A DNA stretch of 18,024 nucleotides from a virus, in IMG/VR virus record IMGVR_UViG_3300028591_000970. One strand, given 5' to 3'. Each line of letters starts with the position of its first letter. Position 1 is the stretch's first letter. A program made the translations under genes and the position numbers. Below the pieces are notes generated by a model. That model saw nothing but the letters and a program-made list of their open reading frames with translations. It was not told where the DNA came from and searched no databases. This document shows, piece after piece, positions 2,198-11,655 of the stretch.

Positions 2198-3019
2198 TCA
2201 ATCAAAAGAGACTTCACATTTAAATATTGCTTTATTCCATAAATCTGCGGGAGAGATAGTTATTGTTCTCGTATTTAAACGACTCCAATTAGGATCTTCA
2301 TTACCATACTAATCATATTTAATCCAATGAAAATTAGTTACAGTATCACTTATATCTCTATCTCCTTTTTTAACAGTAGCCGTTAAAAGAGTATTAATTC
2401 CCCTATTTTTAAAAATATTTCCCGCACTAGATTCAATCTATACTACTATGGGAGTAGCACCATCTTTTACCTTTTTTAAAACTAAAAAACGTCTGGCTTC
2501 TATCTGTCTATATATAACATGAATCTATATATATGCTTGATCTTCATATAAATCATGTACTATTATTTTATGTAAATTAGCGTTCCAAGAAGCATCAACA
2601 GAATCGGGAAATATAATATCCCATTGTATTCTTTCATCTCCAGTAATATCTTTTCCGCCATAATAAATATAAACATCTGTCTAGCATTTTGTAAAATCTC
2701 CATTCTTACCATCTTCATCGGTAGAAATTATTTGCATATCATTTGATAAACCTATAGCTAAAGCTCTCTATGATTGAACAAGTGCGGTAATTGCACTTAT
2801 ATGTGCACCAAGGTCTGGATAAATAGTTCCATCATATCCAACTCTTGCATCTGAAATCTATTTATCCATTTCCTCAGTATTATTTTCCAAATTATCAATA
2901 ATAAATTGAAGATTATCTCCATTGGTCATAAAAACATTATTACTACCGACCGCAACAGGAATTTTATACCCATACGTTCCATCTTTTTTCTGAACACGTA
3001 TAAATTTTAATTTATCCAT
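2198..3019 (-). CDS. Hypothetical tail or structural protein, 273 codons with 6 in-frame TAG codons (amber-recoded). Terminates at TGA.
   Basis: ATG at 3019..3017 preceded by AAGGAGATATATCTTAA. One frame continues through six TAGs: MDKLKFIRVQKKDGTYGYKIPVAVGSNNVFMTNGDNLQFIIDNLENNTEEMDK*ISDARVGYDGTIYPDLGAHISAITALVQS*RALAIGLS...KYD*YGNEDPNWSRLNTRTITISPADLWNKAIFKCEVSFD. It ends at TGA 2200..2198. The standard-code ORF track shows nothing here. Confidence 0.6.
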
Positions 3020-3106
3020 TTAAGATATATCTCCTTTATTAATTATTTTTATTTTTTCTATATTTATTATAAAATATATAAAACATTTTTACTTTATTTT
3101 GCCCTT

Positions 3107-3403
3107 TTAAGCAGATACTACAAAATCTATAATTACTTCATTAGAAGAATCTTCCTTTACTTTTAATGAAGTAATTTTAACTTCATCTGCTTCATAAATT
3201 TTTGTTTTTCCTATTTTTATTTCTTTATTATTTATTAAAAATATTGTATCTTCAGGAGCAAAGATACCTATTCTTTCAATATGATCTACATCAAAAGCAG
3301 AATAGGTATCTTTTTTATTTATTAGTTCAAAAAGCTCTTGACCTCCAATAAATTTCCCTCCTTCTTGATCTCTTGCTCTTATTTGTCCTTGGTAACCATT
3401 CAT
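3107..3403 (-). CDS. Hypothetical 98-aa protein, no in-frame TAG
   Basis: ORF track: MNGYQGQIRARDQEGGKF... The RBS GAGGGGTG lies 7 nt upstream of ATG 3403..3401. The gene starts 4 nt after the TGA of the upstream gene. Stop is TAA at 3109..3107. Confidence 0.55.
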   Translation of the reverse strand: MNGYQGQIRARDQEGGKFIGGQELFELINKKDTYSAFDVDHIERIGIFAPEDTIFLINNKEIKIGKTKIYEADEVKITSLKVKEDSSNEVIIDFVVSA

Positions 3404-8768: not shown

Positions 8769-8787
8769 TAATATCAATCTCCTTTTA

Positions 8788-11655
8788 TTACTATTCTTTC
8801 AATATAATTTTACAATGATAATCAATAATAGCTTCTATCGAAGGAATTACAACAATATGGTCATCTGTAAATGGATACCAAGAACCATGATAATAAATAT
8901 ACTTATTACTATTTAAAAAGAATAATCCTAATGTTTCTAAATCTAATTCTTCTGCTTCATCATTTTTAGTAGACCATAAGATACTTCTTTCTTGCTATTC
9001 AAGCCATTCTACAAGCTCTTCAAAATCTTCTGTTGTTAATTCATCTTCATCTATAACTAAAGTATCTTCTTCTGTTTTTTGGAAAGGAGAAACAGAATAT
9101 ACATAATTATTCTTAGGATTTCTAATAGCACTTAACGATATAACTTCATTAGTGTCGTAAAATTCATAATCATTCAAGCCTTCTTTTCTTAGTTCTTCCG
9201 CAGAAATCTATGATAAAGTAGGACCTACTATATATAAACCTCTTATATCTGTTTCAGGATTATTAAACTATAATAATCCAGTTTCATTTAATACATGTTT
9301 CTCATATCGTTTATCTTGGTTCTATCTTATAAAGAAAGTAGTACCAGGCGCCGCCTGTATACATAATGAATCTATTTTTTGTAACTATTGTTCAAAGTTA
9401 TTTCCATAAATATTATACTTATTTATAATAGTAGTATATATCAACTAACTTGTATTATTTAAAATACTAAAACCTCCCCATAGTTGACCAATTCTAGATA
9501 TAGAAGTATATCGTCTAAAATTATTAATCTTTTTAGGAGATTCTTCAATATTAGCAATAAAATCTATAAAACCTTGTTCTTGTGCATAAGCAAAACTTAA
9601 ACTAGTTACACTTGTATTAGAATCAGATAATTCATAAATACCATCTTTGTTTATAATTATATCTTCTCCATTTATATTTATTATGTGACCAAGATATACG
9701 TTTGAATTATTGTTACCTTTTTCAATCCTATAAGGTCTTTTACTATTATCAATCGCAATTAAGTATGGATCTGATGTTAAAGTTATTTTTAAATAAGATA
9801 AATCTTGAACATTAATAGCAATATCATCACTCTATAAAATAGAATATTTATCTTTTATTAAATTATTTAATAAATTACCTTTTCCAAAATAAGTTAATCC
9901 TTCATTTAAAACATTTACATTATGATTACTACTATAATATAGATTAGGAGAAGGCATAACCAACTGACCAAATTTTGTTACTACAAACCTATCTTGTTGA
10001 ACATATTTCCCACAATCTTGAATTTCATACTTAATACAATTTTCATAATTAAAATCGTCTATTTCATAAACTGTTCCTGTAAAACTATAAATCTGTCTAC
10101 TTAAATTATTATTTGGAGTTAAACTAATATTCATTAATTTCACTAATATATTTCCCTAAGTTGCAGATTTATATAATTTCACTTTTCCATCATATAAGAA
10201 ATCTAAAACCTTTTCTCTAAAATCTTTCTCTTGAATAATATCATTATATAAATTTATATTATTCTTTACATTATATTCTTCATAATATTCTGCGGACGCT
10301 CCATGTAATTCCGTACGAGAAGCTCTCATTAAATTCTATTTAATATCCGAAAAATAAGAAATAGTTCCTGAGATAGAAAAAGTTCTATAATCAACTTTTC
10401 CGTTTCGTCTAATAAAAGGATACTTTGACCCAATCGTTTCAGTTAAAGATTCAGAAACAACTCTTGAATAATTATTTACCTGAGGATCGAATCTAATTTT
10501 TAACTGTTGATCTTTAGTTGTTAAAAATATATCTTCAAAATTTGCCATAATAGGTCGTTTCATCTCAACTGCAACAGACCTATAATCATATTCATCTCGC
10601 TTAGATACTGCGTATTTATACCACACTCCGCTTTCAATAGTATAGTCTCTCCATTCTAATTTTAAAACTGTATTAGGAGAAATTAAAGTTGTATACATAT
10701 CTTCCCAATATGTAAAATTATCTTTATTAGATGCTCTCGTAATAACGATATTGGTGCCTAATTCTGATAAAATATCATTCTGTAAAGTTACTATTGCGCA
10801 TCCCGCATTATTATCTACTTTTGCAGAAATTTCTGCCTAAAAATTAGATATATTAATATAACTTATCTAAAAATGATATTCTCTTTGTGTAGTATATAAA
10901 TTTTTAGTAGTAATTTGTATTTTTAATACATATTCCCTCTAAAGGAATCTATATTTACAATTATAATAAATCTAATTTGAATTATTAAAATATTTTTCTC
11001 CGCTATCTTCTACTAAATTATTTTCTGTATCATAAATTAAAATTCTATAATTTTTAAAACCTTCATAATCATTACTATCTTTTGAAGTTACCGTTCCTAA
11101 AATAGTTAAATCATTTGTAGTAATCGTTGTTAAGGCTTCTTCGGAAAGATATTTTAACTATACAATTAATGGACTAATTGGTTTAATTAATACAACAGTA
11201 GACCACTATGAAAAATAAGATAGATTTGAATTTATCCAGCCATCTAAATTTTTATAATTTCCATTATTATCTGTCTCAGGGTATCTACTATCATGTTGAG
11301 TAGGCTATACCGCTTGTGTAAATCTAATTTGTACTTTATAATATTCGTTATAATTAAAACCACCTTCTATATCTGCCTAACTTATCGTAATAAAATATTT
11401 TTCTTCATCTTCTTTTTCGAGATTAGTCTTTAAAGATGTTATTTTAATTCCACTAGGATATAGATTTTGAGATAAAACAGATTGATTTGTTTTTTGATTT
11501 TGTACCGTAACCTGTATTAAATCAGTTTCAATCTCTGATAAACTATTAAATTTTGAAATCGAAAAATAAATATTACAACCGTTATTTTTTATAAAAGCAG
11601 GAACATAAGATTTTTTAAAAATAGGTGGATATAAATTATTATTAATTCCTGGCAT
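8788..11655 (-). CDS. Giant structural protein, 955 codons with 18 in-frame TAG codons (amber-recoded). First gene of the minus-strand module.
   Basis: ATG at 11655..11653 with RBS AAGGAGG 8 nt upstream. One frame (top coordinate = 0 mod 3), checked codon by codon, links track ORFs 11377..11655, 10336..10698, 9832..10143 and 8995..9177 into a single reading frame. It is interrupted only by TAG at 11379, 11307, 11208, 11160, 10974, 10941, 10869, 10839, 10338, 10158, 9834, 9447, 9387, 9324, 9270, 9210, 8997 and 8793. The first TAA is at 8790..8788. The last sense codons are ...IIDYHCKIILKE followed by TAG-TAA. Confidence 0.55.

What the first reader, a model, noticed from the sequence alone, without database searches (positions are those of the whole stretch)
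2198..11655. Amber (TAG) stop-codon reassignment confined to a five-gene late structural block
Under the standard code this 9.5-kb block looks almost ORF-free. Read on the minus strand, five genes (3019->2198, 5927->3408, 6677->5943, 8768->6693, 11655->8788) each keep one reading frame for 244-955 codons. Each starts at a strong Shine-Dalgarno plus ATG. The only interruptions are TAG codons: 6, 13, 5, about 20 and 18, roughly 62 in all, or one per 45-50 codons. Every gene ends at the first TAA or TGA. No real terminator in the window is TAG. Random pseudogenisation would produce TAA/TGA stops and frameshifts as well, and I found none. The plus-strand genes, about 1940 codons, contain no in-frame TAG at all. 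This late-genes-only pattern matches what is known for code-15-type phages such as crAss-like and Lak-type phages, where a phage suppressor tRNA(CUA), usually glutamine, is thought to gate translation of late and lysis genes. Any standard-code annotation of this element would therefore be wrong: it would either fragment these genes or miss them.
Basis: partly seen in the sequence, partly recalled or inferred. Interest (0 to 1): 0.9.

Follow-up and report, generated by a model that had tools for sequence, protein, structure and literature searches.

The report
Phage tail genes read TAG as glutamate
Five tail-tip genes of an uncultured phage use the stop codon TAG as an ordinary codon, and alignments show it stands for glutamate, not the glutamine assumed for every TAG-recoded phage described so far, so current annotation tools mistranslate these proteins.

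Summary
Five minus-strand genes (2198-11655) each keep one frame, with 6, 13, 5, 20 and 18 in-frame TAGs (62 in all), no in-frame TAA or TGA, ATG starts behind AGGAG, and TAA/TGA terminators. The plus-strand genes have no TAG. The block is a phage tail-tip module: the 691-codon gene is a gp27/VgrG-type baseplate hub.

TAG is a sense codon, but it does not mean glutamine (code 15). In alignments with ten divergent relatives, TAG sits in 13 of 17 invariant-Glu columns, 0 of 9 invariant-Gln columns and 1 of about 400 other invariant columns. A likelihood test that recovers ten control codons correctly assigns TAG to Glu by more than 200 log units. Relatives that do not use TAG as a sense codon carry Glu at 33-47% of the window's TAG positions and Gln at 0-6%.

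Related genomes encode a conserved tRNA(CUA). It lacks the Gln identity set, and its C1-G72 pair replaces the U1-A72 pair that amidotransferases need.

TAG use is also not simply "late genes only": a 98-codon gene inside the block and the co-oriented tail-fibre genes downstream are TAG-free.

I found no report of TAG→Glu in phages. I rate it a new variant of a known kind.

The parts
8788..11655 (-). m5: 955-codon tail-tip protein with 18 in-frame TAG; the last is the penultimate codon (TAG-TAA). First gene of the recoded block.
   Evidence: PHROG phrog_30026, unknown function. Orthologues of 897-1017 aa carrying 10-22 TAG sit at the same position in L002, L003, L012, L013 and L025; the orthologue in standard-code L026 has 0 TAG.
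6693..8768 (-). m4: 691-codon baseplate hub / tail-associated protein (gp27/VgrG fold) with 20 in-frame TAG.
   Evidence: PHROG phrog_32343 and phrog_1887 'tail protein'. 4986 homologues. The AF2 model of the standard-code homologue P0111 (pLDDT 75) matches the phi812 baseplate (9euf_E), T4 gp27 (1k28_D), the Mu hub (9ki1_G), T5 tail-tip proteins (7zqp_b, 7zhj_b) and T6SS VgrG (8gra_G) with Foldseek E down to 1e-9. TAGs at codons 180, 188, 298, 502, 565 and 627 lie in columns that hold only E or database-'Q' in 118 homologues.
5943..6677 (-). m3: 244-codon protein with 5 in-frame TAG; function unknown.
   Evidence: Orthologues in all relatives. No family hit.
3408..5927 (-). m2: 839-codon protein with 13 in-frame TAG. 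Its central part is variable and probably belongs to the peripheral baseplate or receptor-binding apparatus.
   Evidence: Orthologues are 29-67% identical. Most of the few TAG changes between near-identical relatives (TAG<->CAG, CAA, AAC) lie here.
3107..3403 (-). m1b: 98-codon gene inside the block with no TAG (10 GAR codons, so the absence is not significant on its own).
   Evidence: The exact protein occurs on 16 contigs. Orthologues in L003 and L013 do carry TAG, 4 and 7 respectively.
2198..3019 (-). m1: 273-codon tail protein with 6 in-frame TAG. Last recoded gene of the block.
   Evidence: Its C-terminal 90 residues match PHROG tail and tail-fibre families phrog_3267, 6468 and 2929.
1..2177 (-). 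m0: tail-fibre gene that runs off the window (839 codons in L006). It is co-oriented, starts 20 nt after m1 and has 0 TAG. It marks the sharp downstream edge of TAG use.
   Evidence: PHROG phrog_3267 N-terminal part, E 2.5e-35. In L006 this gene has 25 GAR and 0 TAG, and the next gene (at least 2176 codons) has 80 GAR and 0 TAG; P is about 8e-14 at the block's 25% TAG share. It is only 26% identical to the gene at the same place in L003, which has 6 TAG.
11656..11818 (.). Divergent intergenic region between the recoded block and the TAG-free plus-strand genes. It holds the best sigma-70-like promoter of the window, facing the plus-strand genes.
   Evidence: TTGACC-17-TATAAT at 11752-11780 (+), 11 of 12 matches. 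Nothing comparable faces the minus-strand block.
11819..17895 (+). Six TAG-free genes. p1 is unknown. p2 is an MVP-shoulder/SPFH protein. p3 is unknown. p4 is an RNA ligase. p5 is a PNK-like kinase. p6 is a metallophosphoesterase.
   Evidence: Terminator-like hairpin after p2 at 14927-14962.

Best explanation
The window is part of an AT-rich genome of an uncultured tailed phage; related complete contigs are about 130-180 kb. The phage decodes TAG as glutamate. Its tail-tip/baseplate operon (m5 to m1, including a gp27/VgrG-type hub) encodes about a quarter of its glutamates with TAG. The divergently transcribed RNA-repair and MVP-like genes use no TAG at all, and no gene uses TAG to terminate.

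Shown: TAG is read through. The residue it stands for behaves as Glu in evolution. The block is structural. Related genomes with the same gene order and the same TAG=Glu signal carry a conserved tRNA with anticodon CUA inside a large phage tRNA array.

Inferred: the window's own phage carries that tRNA. The tRNA is glutamylated by the host glutamyl-tRNA synthetase. Because it has a C1-G72 first pair instead of U1-A72, the Glu-tRNA amidotransferase does not convert it, so Glu rather than Gln is inserted. Full-length baseplate and lysin proteins can then be made only once the phage tRNA is present, which delays or gates those proteins.

The TAG-free tail-fibre genes at the end of the same operon are best explained as recently swapped host-range modules that have not yet accumulated TAG.
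For: Read-through. There are 62 in-frame TAG and no TAA or TGA in 3002 sense codons. TAG positions are conserved in independent 92-99.8% identical assemblies. Homologues align across every TAG.

Glu, not Gln:
(a) In alignments of m1-m5 from ten divergent genomes, among columns where all non-TAG residues agree, TAG occurs in 13 of 17 all-Glu columns (35 TAG codons), 0 of 9 all-Gln columns and 1 of about 400 others.
(b) The empirical-substitution likelihood for the window's 62 TAGs is E -848.7, D -1068.5, Q -1082.4. The same test returns the true residue for masked CAA, CAG, GAG, GAA, AAG, GAT, AAT, TAT, TCA and TTG. It gives E for each of six recoded genomes.
(c) Three relatives do not use TAG as sense: L026 and MT835469 (standard code) and L004 (TGA->Trp). 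At the window's TAG positions they hold E in 17/45, 12/36 and 14/30 cases. Q appears in 2 of 36 for MT835469 and is absent from the six commonest residues listed for L026 and L004.
(d) In 118 hub homologues the TAG columns are E/Q-only mixes (E .37, Q .22), like true-Glu columns (E .39, Q .18) and unlike true-Gln columns (Q .65, E .06). The collection renders TAG as Q.
(e) Against the nearest distinct lineage (L012), TAG pairs with GAA 29, TAG 20, CAA 8, GAG 7, CAG 2.

Structural block: PHROG tail hits and a hub fold. A GH25 lysin with 7 TAG and a gyrB with 0 TAG lie just right of the window in same-lineage contigs.

tRNA. A 74-nt tRNA(CUA) scores 62 bits against Rfam RF00005. It is identical in L027 (the lineage whose hub is 61% identical to the window's) and in L137/L139, which are about 91% identical in nucleotides to the contig of the 73% lineage. 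A variant about 82% identical occurs in at least 10 further contigs. It has C1-G72, G2.U71 and A73. Co-resident tRNA-Gln(UUG), for example in L073, has U1-A72, G2-C71, G3-C70 and G73. Amidotransferases rely on U1-A72, and ND-GluRS charges both tRNA-Glu and tRNA-Gln in GlnRS-less bacteria (Giege & Eriani 2023, PMC9976931).
Against: The window holds no tRNA, and I could not reach the tRNA array of its own lineage. The 10 kb beyond the fibre gene in the 82% lineage has none.

The tRNA's amino-acid identity cannot be read from its sequence. It lacks several E. coli Glu determinants: it has no G1-C72/U2-A71, C34 replaces U34, A36 replaces C36, and its variable region has 5 nt, so there is no deletion of residue 47. 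Whole-body similarity to phage tRNAs is ambiguous, with Gln 0.73 and Thr 0.71 as best matches.

Between near-identical relatives the few TAG changes are TAG<->CAG (4 sites) and CAA (1 site), with none to GAG. That is what synonymous change under TAG=Gln would look like. It is also what a C<->T transition giving a conservative Glu<->Gln change in variable regions would look like, and the numbers are small.

No protein-level evidence exists. Timing of expression and the gating role are inferred from gene content and one promoter-like site only. The host is not identified; the only hints are a 'Bacillota bacterium' label on a fibre homologue and Enterococcus phage relatives.
Confidence: 0.85

Rival explanations
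1. TAG is decoded as glutamine (genetic code 15), as in crAss-like, Lak and phAss-1 phages, through a Gln-type suppressor tRNA.
For: It is the only TAG meaning reported for phages in the papers I could search. Among 92-96% identical relatives TAG exchanges with CAG at 4 sites and CAA at 1 site and never with GAG. The public protein collection translates these genes with Q. Gln-like tRNA(CUA) genes (UGGGG..., G73) exist in other phage contigs, including a contig of phAss-like size (L101) and a 150-kb contig from metagenome 3300031994, which also holds a same-lineage contig (L070).
Against: No TAG occurs in 9 invariant-Gln columns, against 35 TAG in 13 of 17 invariant-Glu columns. If TAG were 42% of Gln codons, the chance of that absence is about 2e-13. 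The likelihood favours E over Q by 234 log units for the window and by 84-263 in each relative. Relatives that do not use TAG as sense carry E, not Q, at TAG positions. The family's tRNA(CUA) lacks U1-A72, G2-C71 and G73.
Confidence: 0.04
2. Ambiguous decoding. The tRNA(CUA) is glutamylated and then partly transamidated, or two suppressors coexist, so TAG positions receive a mixture of Glu and Gln. TAG therefore settles at sites that need Glu or tolerate both.
For: It would reconcile the strong Glu signal at conserved sites with the TAG<->CAG/CAA exchanges at variable sites between close relatives. Q is the third commonest partner of TAG in the first comparison. The indirect Glu->Gln pathway makes such mixtures biochemically conceivable (PMC9976931).
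Against: TAG sits at invariant Glu positions of a conserved hub protein, where a substantial Gln fraction should be harmful. The Q share opposite TAG (7%) is about that opposite ordinary GAR codons. C1-G72 should block the amidotransferase.
Confidence: 0.08
3. The block is a decaying or mis-assembled region, or its proteins are made as short fragments ending at TAG.
For: Under the standard code the block looks almost ORF-free. GenBank annotations of the relative phAss-1 list fragments.
Against: Only TAG interrupts the frames. There are no frameshifts and no TAA or TGA. TAG positions are conserved across independent assemblies. Full-length homologues exist in standard-code phages (L026, MT835469). 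An essential hub protein is involved.
Confidence: 0.01
4. TAG encodes pyrrolysine or another non-Glu residue. ARAGORN labels the tRNA 'tRNA-Pyl'.
For: The ARAGORN label, which rests on the CUA anticodon alone.
Against: Aligned residues are Glu, not Lys-like: K ranks far below E. The tRNA fits the general tRNA model end to end, with a normal D loop containing GG and a TTCGA T loop. From my own knowledge, tRNA-Pyl lacks these features. No pyl genes were seen in any of the fetched flanks I annotated.
Confidence: 0.01

Closest known systems
Genetic code 15 phages (TAG->Gln): crAss-like phages, Lak megaphages, and phAss-1 with the proposed Phassvirus (Babkin 2023, PMC10607447; Borges 2021 preprint; Peters 2022, PMC9523058)
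   Same: One stop codon (TAG) is used as a sense codon in structural and lysis genes and is absent from neighbouring non-structural genes. TAG is never a terminator. A phage-encoded tRNA(CUA) sits in a tRNA array. Standard-code annotation fragments the genes. phAss-1 is also a distant relative, with a hub protein 31.5% identical.
   Different: Here the amino acid is Glu, not Gln. The tRNA(CUA) has C1-G72 and A73 instead of the Gln-like UGGGG.../G73 suppressor seen in the phAss-like contig. The phage shows no similarity to Crassvirales or Lak in its hub protein.
TGA->Trp (code 4) recoded relatives of the same phage family, e.g. IMGVR_UViG_3300028832_000101 (L004). They may correspond to the 'Agate' clade of Borges et al., but that link is a lead from the paper, not tested here.
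   Same: The same hub gene (48% identical) and the same habit of recoding a stop codon in tail genes. Borges et al. report standard-code, TGA-recoded and TAG-recoded members within one clade.
   Different: A different stop codon and a different amino acid: TGA aligns with Trp at four positions.
Peritrich ciliate nuclear code (NCBI table 30, TAA and TAG -> Glu; from my own knowledge)
   Same: It is the only catalogued code I know in which TAG means Glu.
   Different: It belongs to eukaryotic nuclear genomes. There TAA is also Glu, whereas here TAA is the main terminator. The origin is independent.
Standard-code relatives: MT835469.1 (176 kb, human faeces), ONAT22-1 scaffold_147 (L026), Enterococcus phages EF1 and VRE9
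   Same: Homologous hub and neighbouring tail genes in the same order.
   Different: No TAG in those genes. MT835469 has only 4 tRNAs and no suppressor.

Membership tests
Stop-codon-recoded ('alternatively coded') phages | A single stop-codon type interrupts otherwise intact, conserved ORFs, and homologues align across it | tested here: met
   62 TAG and 0 TAA/TGA in frame. Full-length alignments to orthologues and to standard-code homologues.
Stop-codon-recoded ('alternatively coded') phages | The recoded codon is not used as a terminator | tested here: met
   All 13 genes of the window end in TAA or TGA. The same holds for 18 of 18 genes in L030.
Stop-codon-recoded ('alternatively coded') phages | Recoding is concentrated in structural and lysis genes and absent from early or replication genes | tested here: met
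   Baseplate block: 62 TAG. GH25 lysin in L021: 7 TAG. RNA-repair genes, MVP-like gene and gyrB: 0 TAG. Exception: the tail-fibre genes m0 and the giant fibre have 0 TAG.
Stop-codon-recoded ('alternatively coded') phages | Phage-encoded suppressor tRNA matching the recoded codon | tested here: inconclusive
   No tRNA in the window or in 35 kb of same-lineage contigs. It is present and conserved in related genomes of the 61% and 73% hub lineages.
Genetic code 15 (NCBI table 15) | TAG is a sense codon | tested here: met
Genetic code 15 (NCBI table 15) | TAG encodes glutamine | tested here: not met
   0 TAG in 9 invariant-Gln columns against 35 TAG in 13 of 17 invariant-Glu columns. logL is E -848.7 against Q -1082.4, with ten correct control codons. 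Relatives that do not use TAG as sense hold E at TAG sites.
Crassvirales / Lak megaphages | Sequence relatedness of hallmark structural proteins | tested here: not met
   tblastn of the hub protein against 50,697 phage records finds only phAss-1, Enterococcus phages and two unclassified records. Only the accessory MVP-like gene matches 462-735 kb uncultured phages.
Proposed genus Phassvirus (phAss-1 group) | More than about 80% nucleotide identity, shared synteny, and a Gln-type tRNA-Sup-CTA | tested here: not met
   No megablast match to any phage record. Hub protein 31.5% identical. The suppressor tRNA is of a different type. A relationship at or above family level remains plausible.
Peritrich nuclear code (table 30) | Both TAA and TAG encode Glu | tested here: not met
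   TAG=Glu is met, but TAA is the terminator of 9 of the window's 13 genes and never occurs in frame.
Pyrrolysine decoding | tRNA-Pyl architecture, pyl genes, Lys-like aligned residues | tested here: not met
   The tRNA fits the general tRNA model over its full length at 62 bits. Aligned residues are Glu. No pyl genes were seen in any of the fetched flanks I annotated.

The most novel reading that the evidence does not exclude
A previously unrecognised phage genetic code, TAG->Glu. It is used by a large family of roughly 130-180 kb uncultured phages, and all six divergent lineages tested gave Glu. It is implemented by a conserved phage tRNA(CUA) that the host GluRS glutamylates and that escapes the Glu->Gln amidotransferase because of its C1-G72 pair. 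If so, the amino acid a recoded phage inserts at TAG would depend on how its host makes Gln-tRNA: GlnRS hosts would give Gln, and indirect-pathway hosts could give Glu. Every code-15 translation of these phages in public databases would then carry Q at true Glu positions.
Probability: 0.55. Interest if true: 0.85.

Novelty: new variant of a known kind. Interest (0 to 1): 0.78.

Why it matters
Stop-codon recoding in phages is established, but every TAG case has been treated as TAG->Gln. Gene callers and annotation pipelines, and the protein collection searched here, hard-wire that assumption. If TAG means Glu in this family, about 2% of residues in its structural and lysis proteins are wrong in the databases, including invariant glutamates of the baseplate hub. 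Homology searches, structure predictions and proteomic searches inherit the error. Proteomic searches with a code-15 database would miss every TAG-spanning peptide by 0.98 Da.

It would also be the first TAG->Glu code I know of outside ciliates. It gives a concrete, testable link between a phage's code and its host's route to Gln-tRNA, namely GluRS plus amidotransferase identity rules. The conserved 74-nt tRNA(CUA) is a ready-made natural amber suppressor that probably inserts Glu.

The sharp TAG-free boundary at the tail-fibre genes shows that TAG content can mark recently exchanged modules inside one operon.

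Tried and rejected
1. Finding the window's own suppressor tRNA. 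There is none in the window, in L005-L011, in L019-L022 to the right of the window, or in L030/L031, which reach 10 kb past the fibre gene in the nearest long-contig lineage. The search meant to retrieve the 2375-aa fibre protein of the window's own contig did not return it. All exact-protein look-ups are now used.

2. Classifying the tRNA(CUA) by overall similarity to 297 phage tRNAs. The result is ambiguous: for the L027 type Gln scores 0.73 and Thr 0.71, while tRNA-Glu is best only for the related L062, L067 and L105 variants. A table of D-stem, D-loop, variable-loop and discriminator features was also uninformative. I first thought the tRNA shared the residue-47 deletion of tRNA-Glu. Recounting the ARAGORN brackets shows a 5-nt variable region, so I dropped that point.

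3. GH25 lysin as an independent check against solved structures. The first TAG aligns with Glu of LytC ('IDISEHNG'), but the other two align with L/S and K, so this is too little to count.

4. phAss-1 as a positive control for TAG=Gln. Only 8 TAGs lie in the alignable hub gene and the alignment is poor, so it is not informative.

5. Pfam on the Glu-translated block proteins gave no significant family.

6. Megablast of the whole window against phage records gave no match.

7. Six literature searches for TAG/UAG->Glu in phages found only Gln assignments, 'unknown amino acid' for Lak phages, and ciliate cases.

8. I checked for sequence-context bias that might favour suppression. The base after TAG is A in 42% of cases against 38% overall, and TAGs are spread evenly along the genes. 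No signal.

Full report
**1. The observation**

| Gene | Coordinates (minus strand) | Sense codons | In-frame TAG | Terminator |
|---|---|---|---|---|
| m1 | 3019->2198 | 273 | 6 | TGA |
| m2 | 5927->3408 | 839 | 13 | TGA |
| m3 | 6677->5943 | 244 | 5 | TAA |
| m4 | 8768->6693 | 691 | 20 | TAA |
| m5 | 11655->8788 | 955 | 18 | TAA |

- Each gene starts at ATG a few bases after AAGGAG/AGGAGG. None has an in-frame TAA or TGA.
- The other two frames of the same genes carry dozens of all three stops, so the TAG-only pattern belongs to the coding frame.
- The plus-strand genes (1887 codons) have no in-frame TAG, and nothing in the window terminates with TAG.
- Contigs from independent assemblies that are 92-99.8% identical to the window keep at least 57 of the 62 TAGs in place and introduce no other stops. 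Assembly error and decay are excluded.

A 98-codon TAG-free gene (3107-3403) lies inside the block. A co-oriented gene begins 20 nt after m1 (2177->1, running off the window) and has no TAG in at least 725 codons.

**2. What the genes are**

- PHROG profiles call m1, m4 and the downstream gene m0 tail or tail-fibre proteins.
- An AlphaFold model of P0111, a standard-code homologue of m4 (pLDDT 75), matches baseplate hubs, spike bases and tail-tip proteins: phi812 9euf_E, T4 gp27 1k28_D, Mu 9ki1_G, T5 tail-tip chains 7zqp_b and 7zhj_b, and T6SS VgrG 8gra_G. The block is therefore a tail-tip/baseplate operon.
- The plus-strand neighbours are an MVP-shoulder/SPFH protein, an RNA ligase, a PNK-like kinase and a metallophosphoesterase.
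- The best sigma-70-like promoter of the window (11752-11780) faces these plus-strand genes. Nothing comparable faces the block.
- In contigs that continue the window to the right come a holin, a GH25 lysin with 7 TAG, and a gyrB with none.
- To the left, the 99.8% identical contig L006 shows that m0 is 839 codons with 0 TAG. It is followed by a fibre gene of at least 2176 codons, also with 0 TAG.

**3. Relatives**

- No phage record is similar at the DNA level.
- The hub protein finds MT835469.1 (36%), phAss-1 (31.5%; NCBI 'Caudoviricetes code 15 clade'; Babkin 2023, PMC10607447) and Enterococcus phages (about 29%).
- It also finds a very large uncultured family: 4986 proteins, several on 130-178 kb contigs.
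- I collected DNA for ten divergent members.
  - Six are TAG-recoded in the same block: the window, L012, L013, L002/L023, L003/L024 and L025/L027.
  - Two use the standard code: L026 and MT835469.
  - One is TGA->Trp recoded: L004, where '*' aligns with Trp four times.
  - The tenth is phAss-1.

**4. Which amino acid TAG stands for**

- **First comparison.** Against L002 and L003, TAG aligned with E 84, D 25, Q 23 (n = 241).
- **Invariant columns.** With all ten genomes I took alignment columns of m1-m5 in which every residue encoded by a normal codon is identical.

| Column type | Columns | Columns holding TAG | TAG codons |
|---|---|---|---|
| All-Glu | 17 | 13 | 35 |
| All-Gln | 9 | 0 | 0 |
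| All other invariant | about 400 | 1 | 1 |

- **Likelihood test.** Using substitution frequencies measured on the same alignments, the window's TAGs give E -848.7, D -1068.5, Q -1082.4. When CAA, CAG, GAG, GAA, AAG, GAT, AAT, TAT, TCA or TTG are masked instead, the test returns the true residue each time. Each of the six recoded genomes gives E.
- **Relatives that do not use TAG as sense.** At the window's TAG positions, L026, MT835469 and L004 hold Glu in 17/45, 12/36 and 14/30 cases. Gln appears in 2 of 36 for MT835469 and is absent from the six commonest residues listed for the other two. That share is as high as for the window's ordinary GAA/GAG codons.
- **The 118 database homologues of the hub.** The public collection has already translated TAG as Q. 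In these homologues the TAG columns are E-or-Q-only mixes, for example E 77/Q 41, E 71/Q 47 and E 103/Q 15. True Gln columns are almost pure Q.
- **Nearest distinct lineage.** Against L012, TAG pairs with GAA 29, TAG 20, CAA 8, GAG 7 and CAG 2.

The only observation pointing the other way comes from the 92-96% identical contigs. There the handful of TAG changes are to CAG (4 sites), CAA (1), TAT (2), AAC and AAA, and none is to GAG. Most lie in the variable part of m2. TAG<->CAG is a single transition producing a conservative Glu<->Gln change, whereas TAG<->GAG needs a transversion. I therefore treat this as compatible with TAG=Glu, and I keep ambiguous decoding as a minor rival.

**5. How it is probably decoded**

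- The window has no tRNA, and I could not reach the tRNA array of its own lineage.
- In L027, the same genome type as L025 with the same gene order and a hub 61% identical to the window's, a 19-gene tRNA array lies a few kb past the baseplate operon. It contains a 74-nt tRNA with anticodon CUA that scores 62 bits against Rfam RF00005.
- An identical gene occurs in L137 and L139. These are about 91% identical in nucleotides to the contig that carries the hub of the 73% lineage.
- A variant about 82% identical occurs in at least ten more contigs, several next to the same DUF2828 gene.
- The tRNA has C1-G72, G2.U71 and A73. Co-resident tRNA-Gln(UUG), for example in L073, has the classical U1-A72, G2-C71, G3-C70 and G73.
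- According to Giege & Eriani 2023 (PMC9976931), that set defines bacterial Gln identity. Glu-tRNA(Gln) amidotransferases rely on U1-A72. Bacteria without GlnRS charge both tRNA-Glu and tRNA-Gln with a non-discriminating GluRS.
- My inference is that the tRNA(CUA) is glutamylated and cannot be amidated, so Glu is inserted. The glutamylation step is not shown. The tRNA lacks several E. coli Glu determinants, and similarity-based classification was ambiguous.
- By contrast, the suppressor in L101, a contig of the same length (138,252 bp) as the phAss-1 relative BK025033, is Gln-like (UGGGG..., G73, encoded CCA). This agrees with the published Gln call for that group.

**6. Distribution of TAG**

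- In the five genes TAG makes up 62 of 245 Glu codons (25%).
- The 98-codon gene has only 10 GAR codons, so its lack of TAG is not significant.
- The fibre genes downstream have 105 GAR and no TAG (P about 8e-14). Yet m0 starts 20 nt after m1 with no terminator between them.
- m0 is only 26% identical to the gene at the same position in L003, which does carry 6 TAG. The flanking genes are 49-69% identical.
- The simplest reading is that the fibre genes are exchanged host-range modules that arrived without TAG. TAG content therefore tracks gene history as well as expression class.
- The gating idea is that full-length baseplate and lysin proteins need the phage tRNA. It fits the gene classes and the promoter-like site but remains inference.

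**7. Comparison with what is known, and novelty**

- The phenomenon belongs to the known class of stop-codon-recoded phages.
- It fails the defining feature of code 15 (TAG=Gln). It is not crAss-like, Lak-like or a Phassvirus.
- It shares TAG=Glu only with the peritrich nuclear code, which also reassigns TAA. That comparison rests on my own knowledge.
- Borges et al. state that TAG aligned best with Gln 'in most cases'. Cook et al. and a 2026 jumbo-phage survey assume code 15.
- Seven literature searches found no TAG->Glu report for phages. Subscription-only papers are not covered, so prior description cannot be excluded.
- I rate the finding as a new variant of a known kind.

**8. Verdict**

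- I am about 85% confident that TAG is read as Glu here.
- I give about 55% to the full novel case, namely an unreported TAG->Glu phage code with the proposed GluRS/amidotransferase logic.

Noticed in passing
window 12421-14919 (+), terminator-like hairpin 14927-14962: The MVP-shoulder/SPFH protein p2 uses CAG for all 27 Gln codons and avoids TTA, although it keeps the genome's preference for GAA, AAA, AGA and GGA. Orthologues in L012, L023 and L024 do the same (26/27, 26/27, 22/25). It is followed by the strongest terminator-like hairpin in the window. It is 43% identical to ORFs of 462-735 kb uncultured phages (LR756500-3). This looks like selection on a very highly expressed gene.
   Followed up: partly
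window 15567-17895 (+); L027 10001-13077; L029 1402-4246: The window holds an RNA-repair set: RNA ligase with a PHA02142 OB domain, a PNK-like kinase and a metallophosphoesterase. In relatives the tRNA array is flanked by DUF2828/TROVE-like, metallophosphoesterase and nucleotidyltransferase genes, and PDDEXK_5/NUMOD1 endonuclease-like ORFs interrupt it.
   Followed up: no
L004 10001-12844 (IMGVR_UViG_3300028832_000101): A relative 48% identical in the hub gene is TGA->Trp recoded. Its hub gene carries an in-frame insertion of about 870 nt between the two homologous parts. One phage family thus contains standard-code, TGA->Trp and TAG->Glu members.
   Followed up: partly
L048 about 2898; L062 about 2021; L029 1181-1256; L139 3604-3679: ARAGORN calls tRNAs with anticodon UUA (ochre-suppressor-like) in two phage tRNA arrays. 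It also calls a tRNA with an 8-nt anticodon loop ('gcat') in two related arrays. These may be real oddities or mis-folds.
   Followed up: no
window 8788-8793 (end of m5): m5 ends ...TAG TAA. In the 92-96% identical contigs the penultimate TAG is TAT, so the last residue alternates between Glu and Tyr. In effect the window's copy has a tandem 'stop-like' ending.
   Followed up: no
proteins P0001-P0120 (public collection): The public protein collection already reads these genes through TAG but writes Gln. For example the hub motif IYQIIQ-E-LVNHFGG-E-QLGK appears as ...Q-Q-...G-Q-Q... in TAG-bearing members. Thousands of entries probably carry this systematic E->Q error.
   Followed up: partly
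L079-L111 and others: The anticodon arm CGGTCTCTAAAACCG is shared by about 90 otherwise very different tRNA(CUA) genes in IMG/VR contigs of 5-400 kb. It resembles the anticodon arm of tRNA-Trp and tRNA-Cys. Acceptor stems and discriminators fall into several types (UGGGG/G73, CGCCCG/A73 and others), which hints that phage amber suppressors may carry more than one amino acid.
   Followed up: partly
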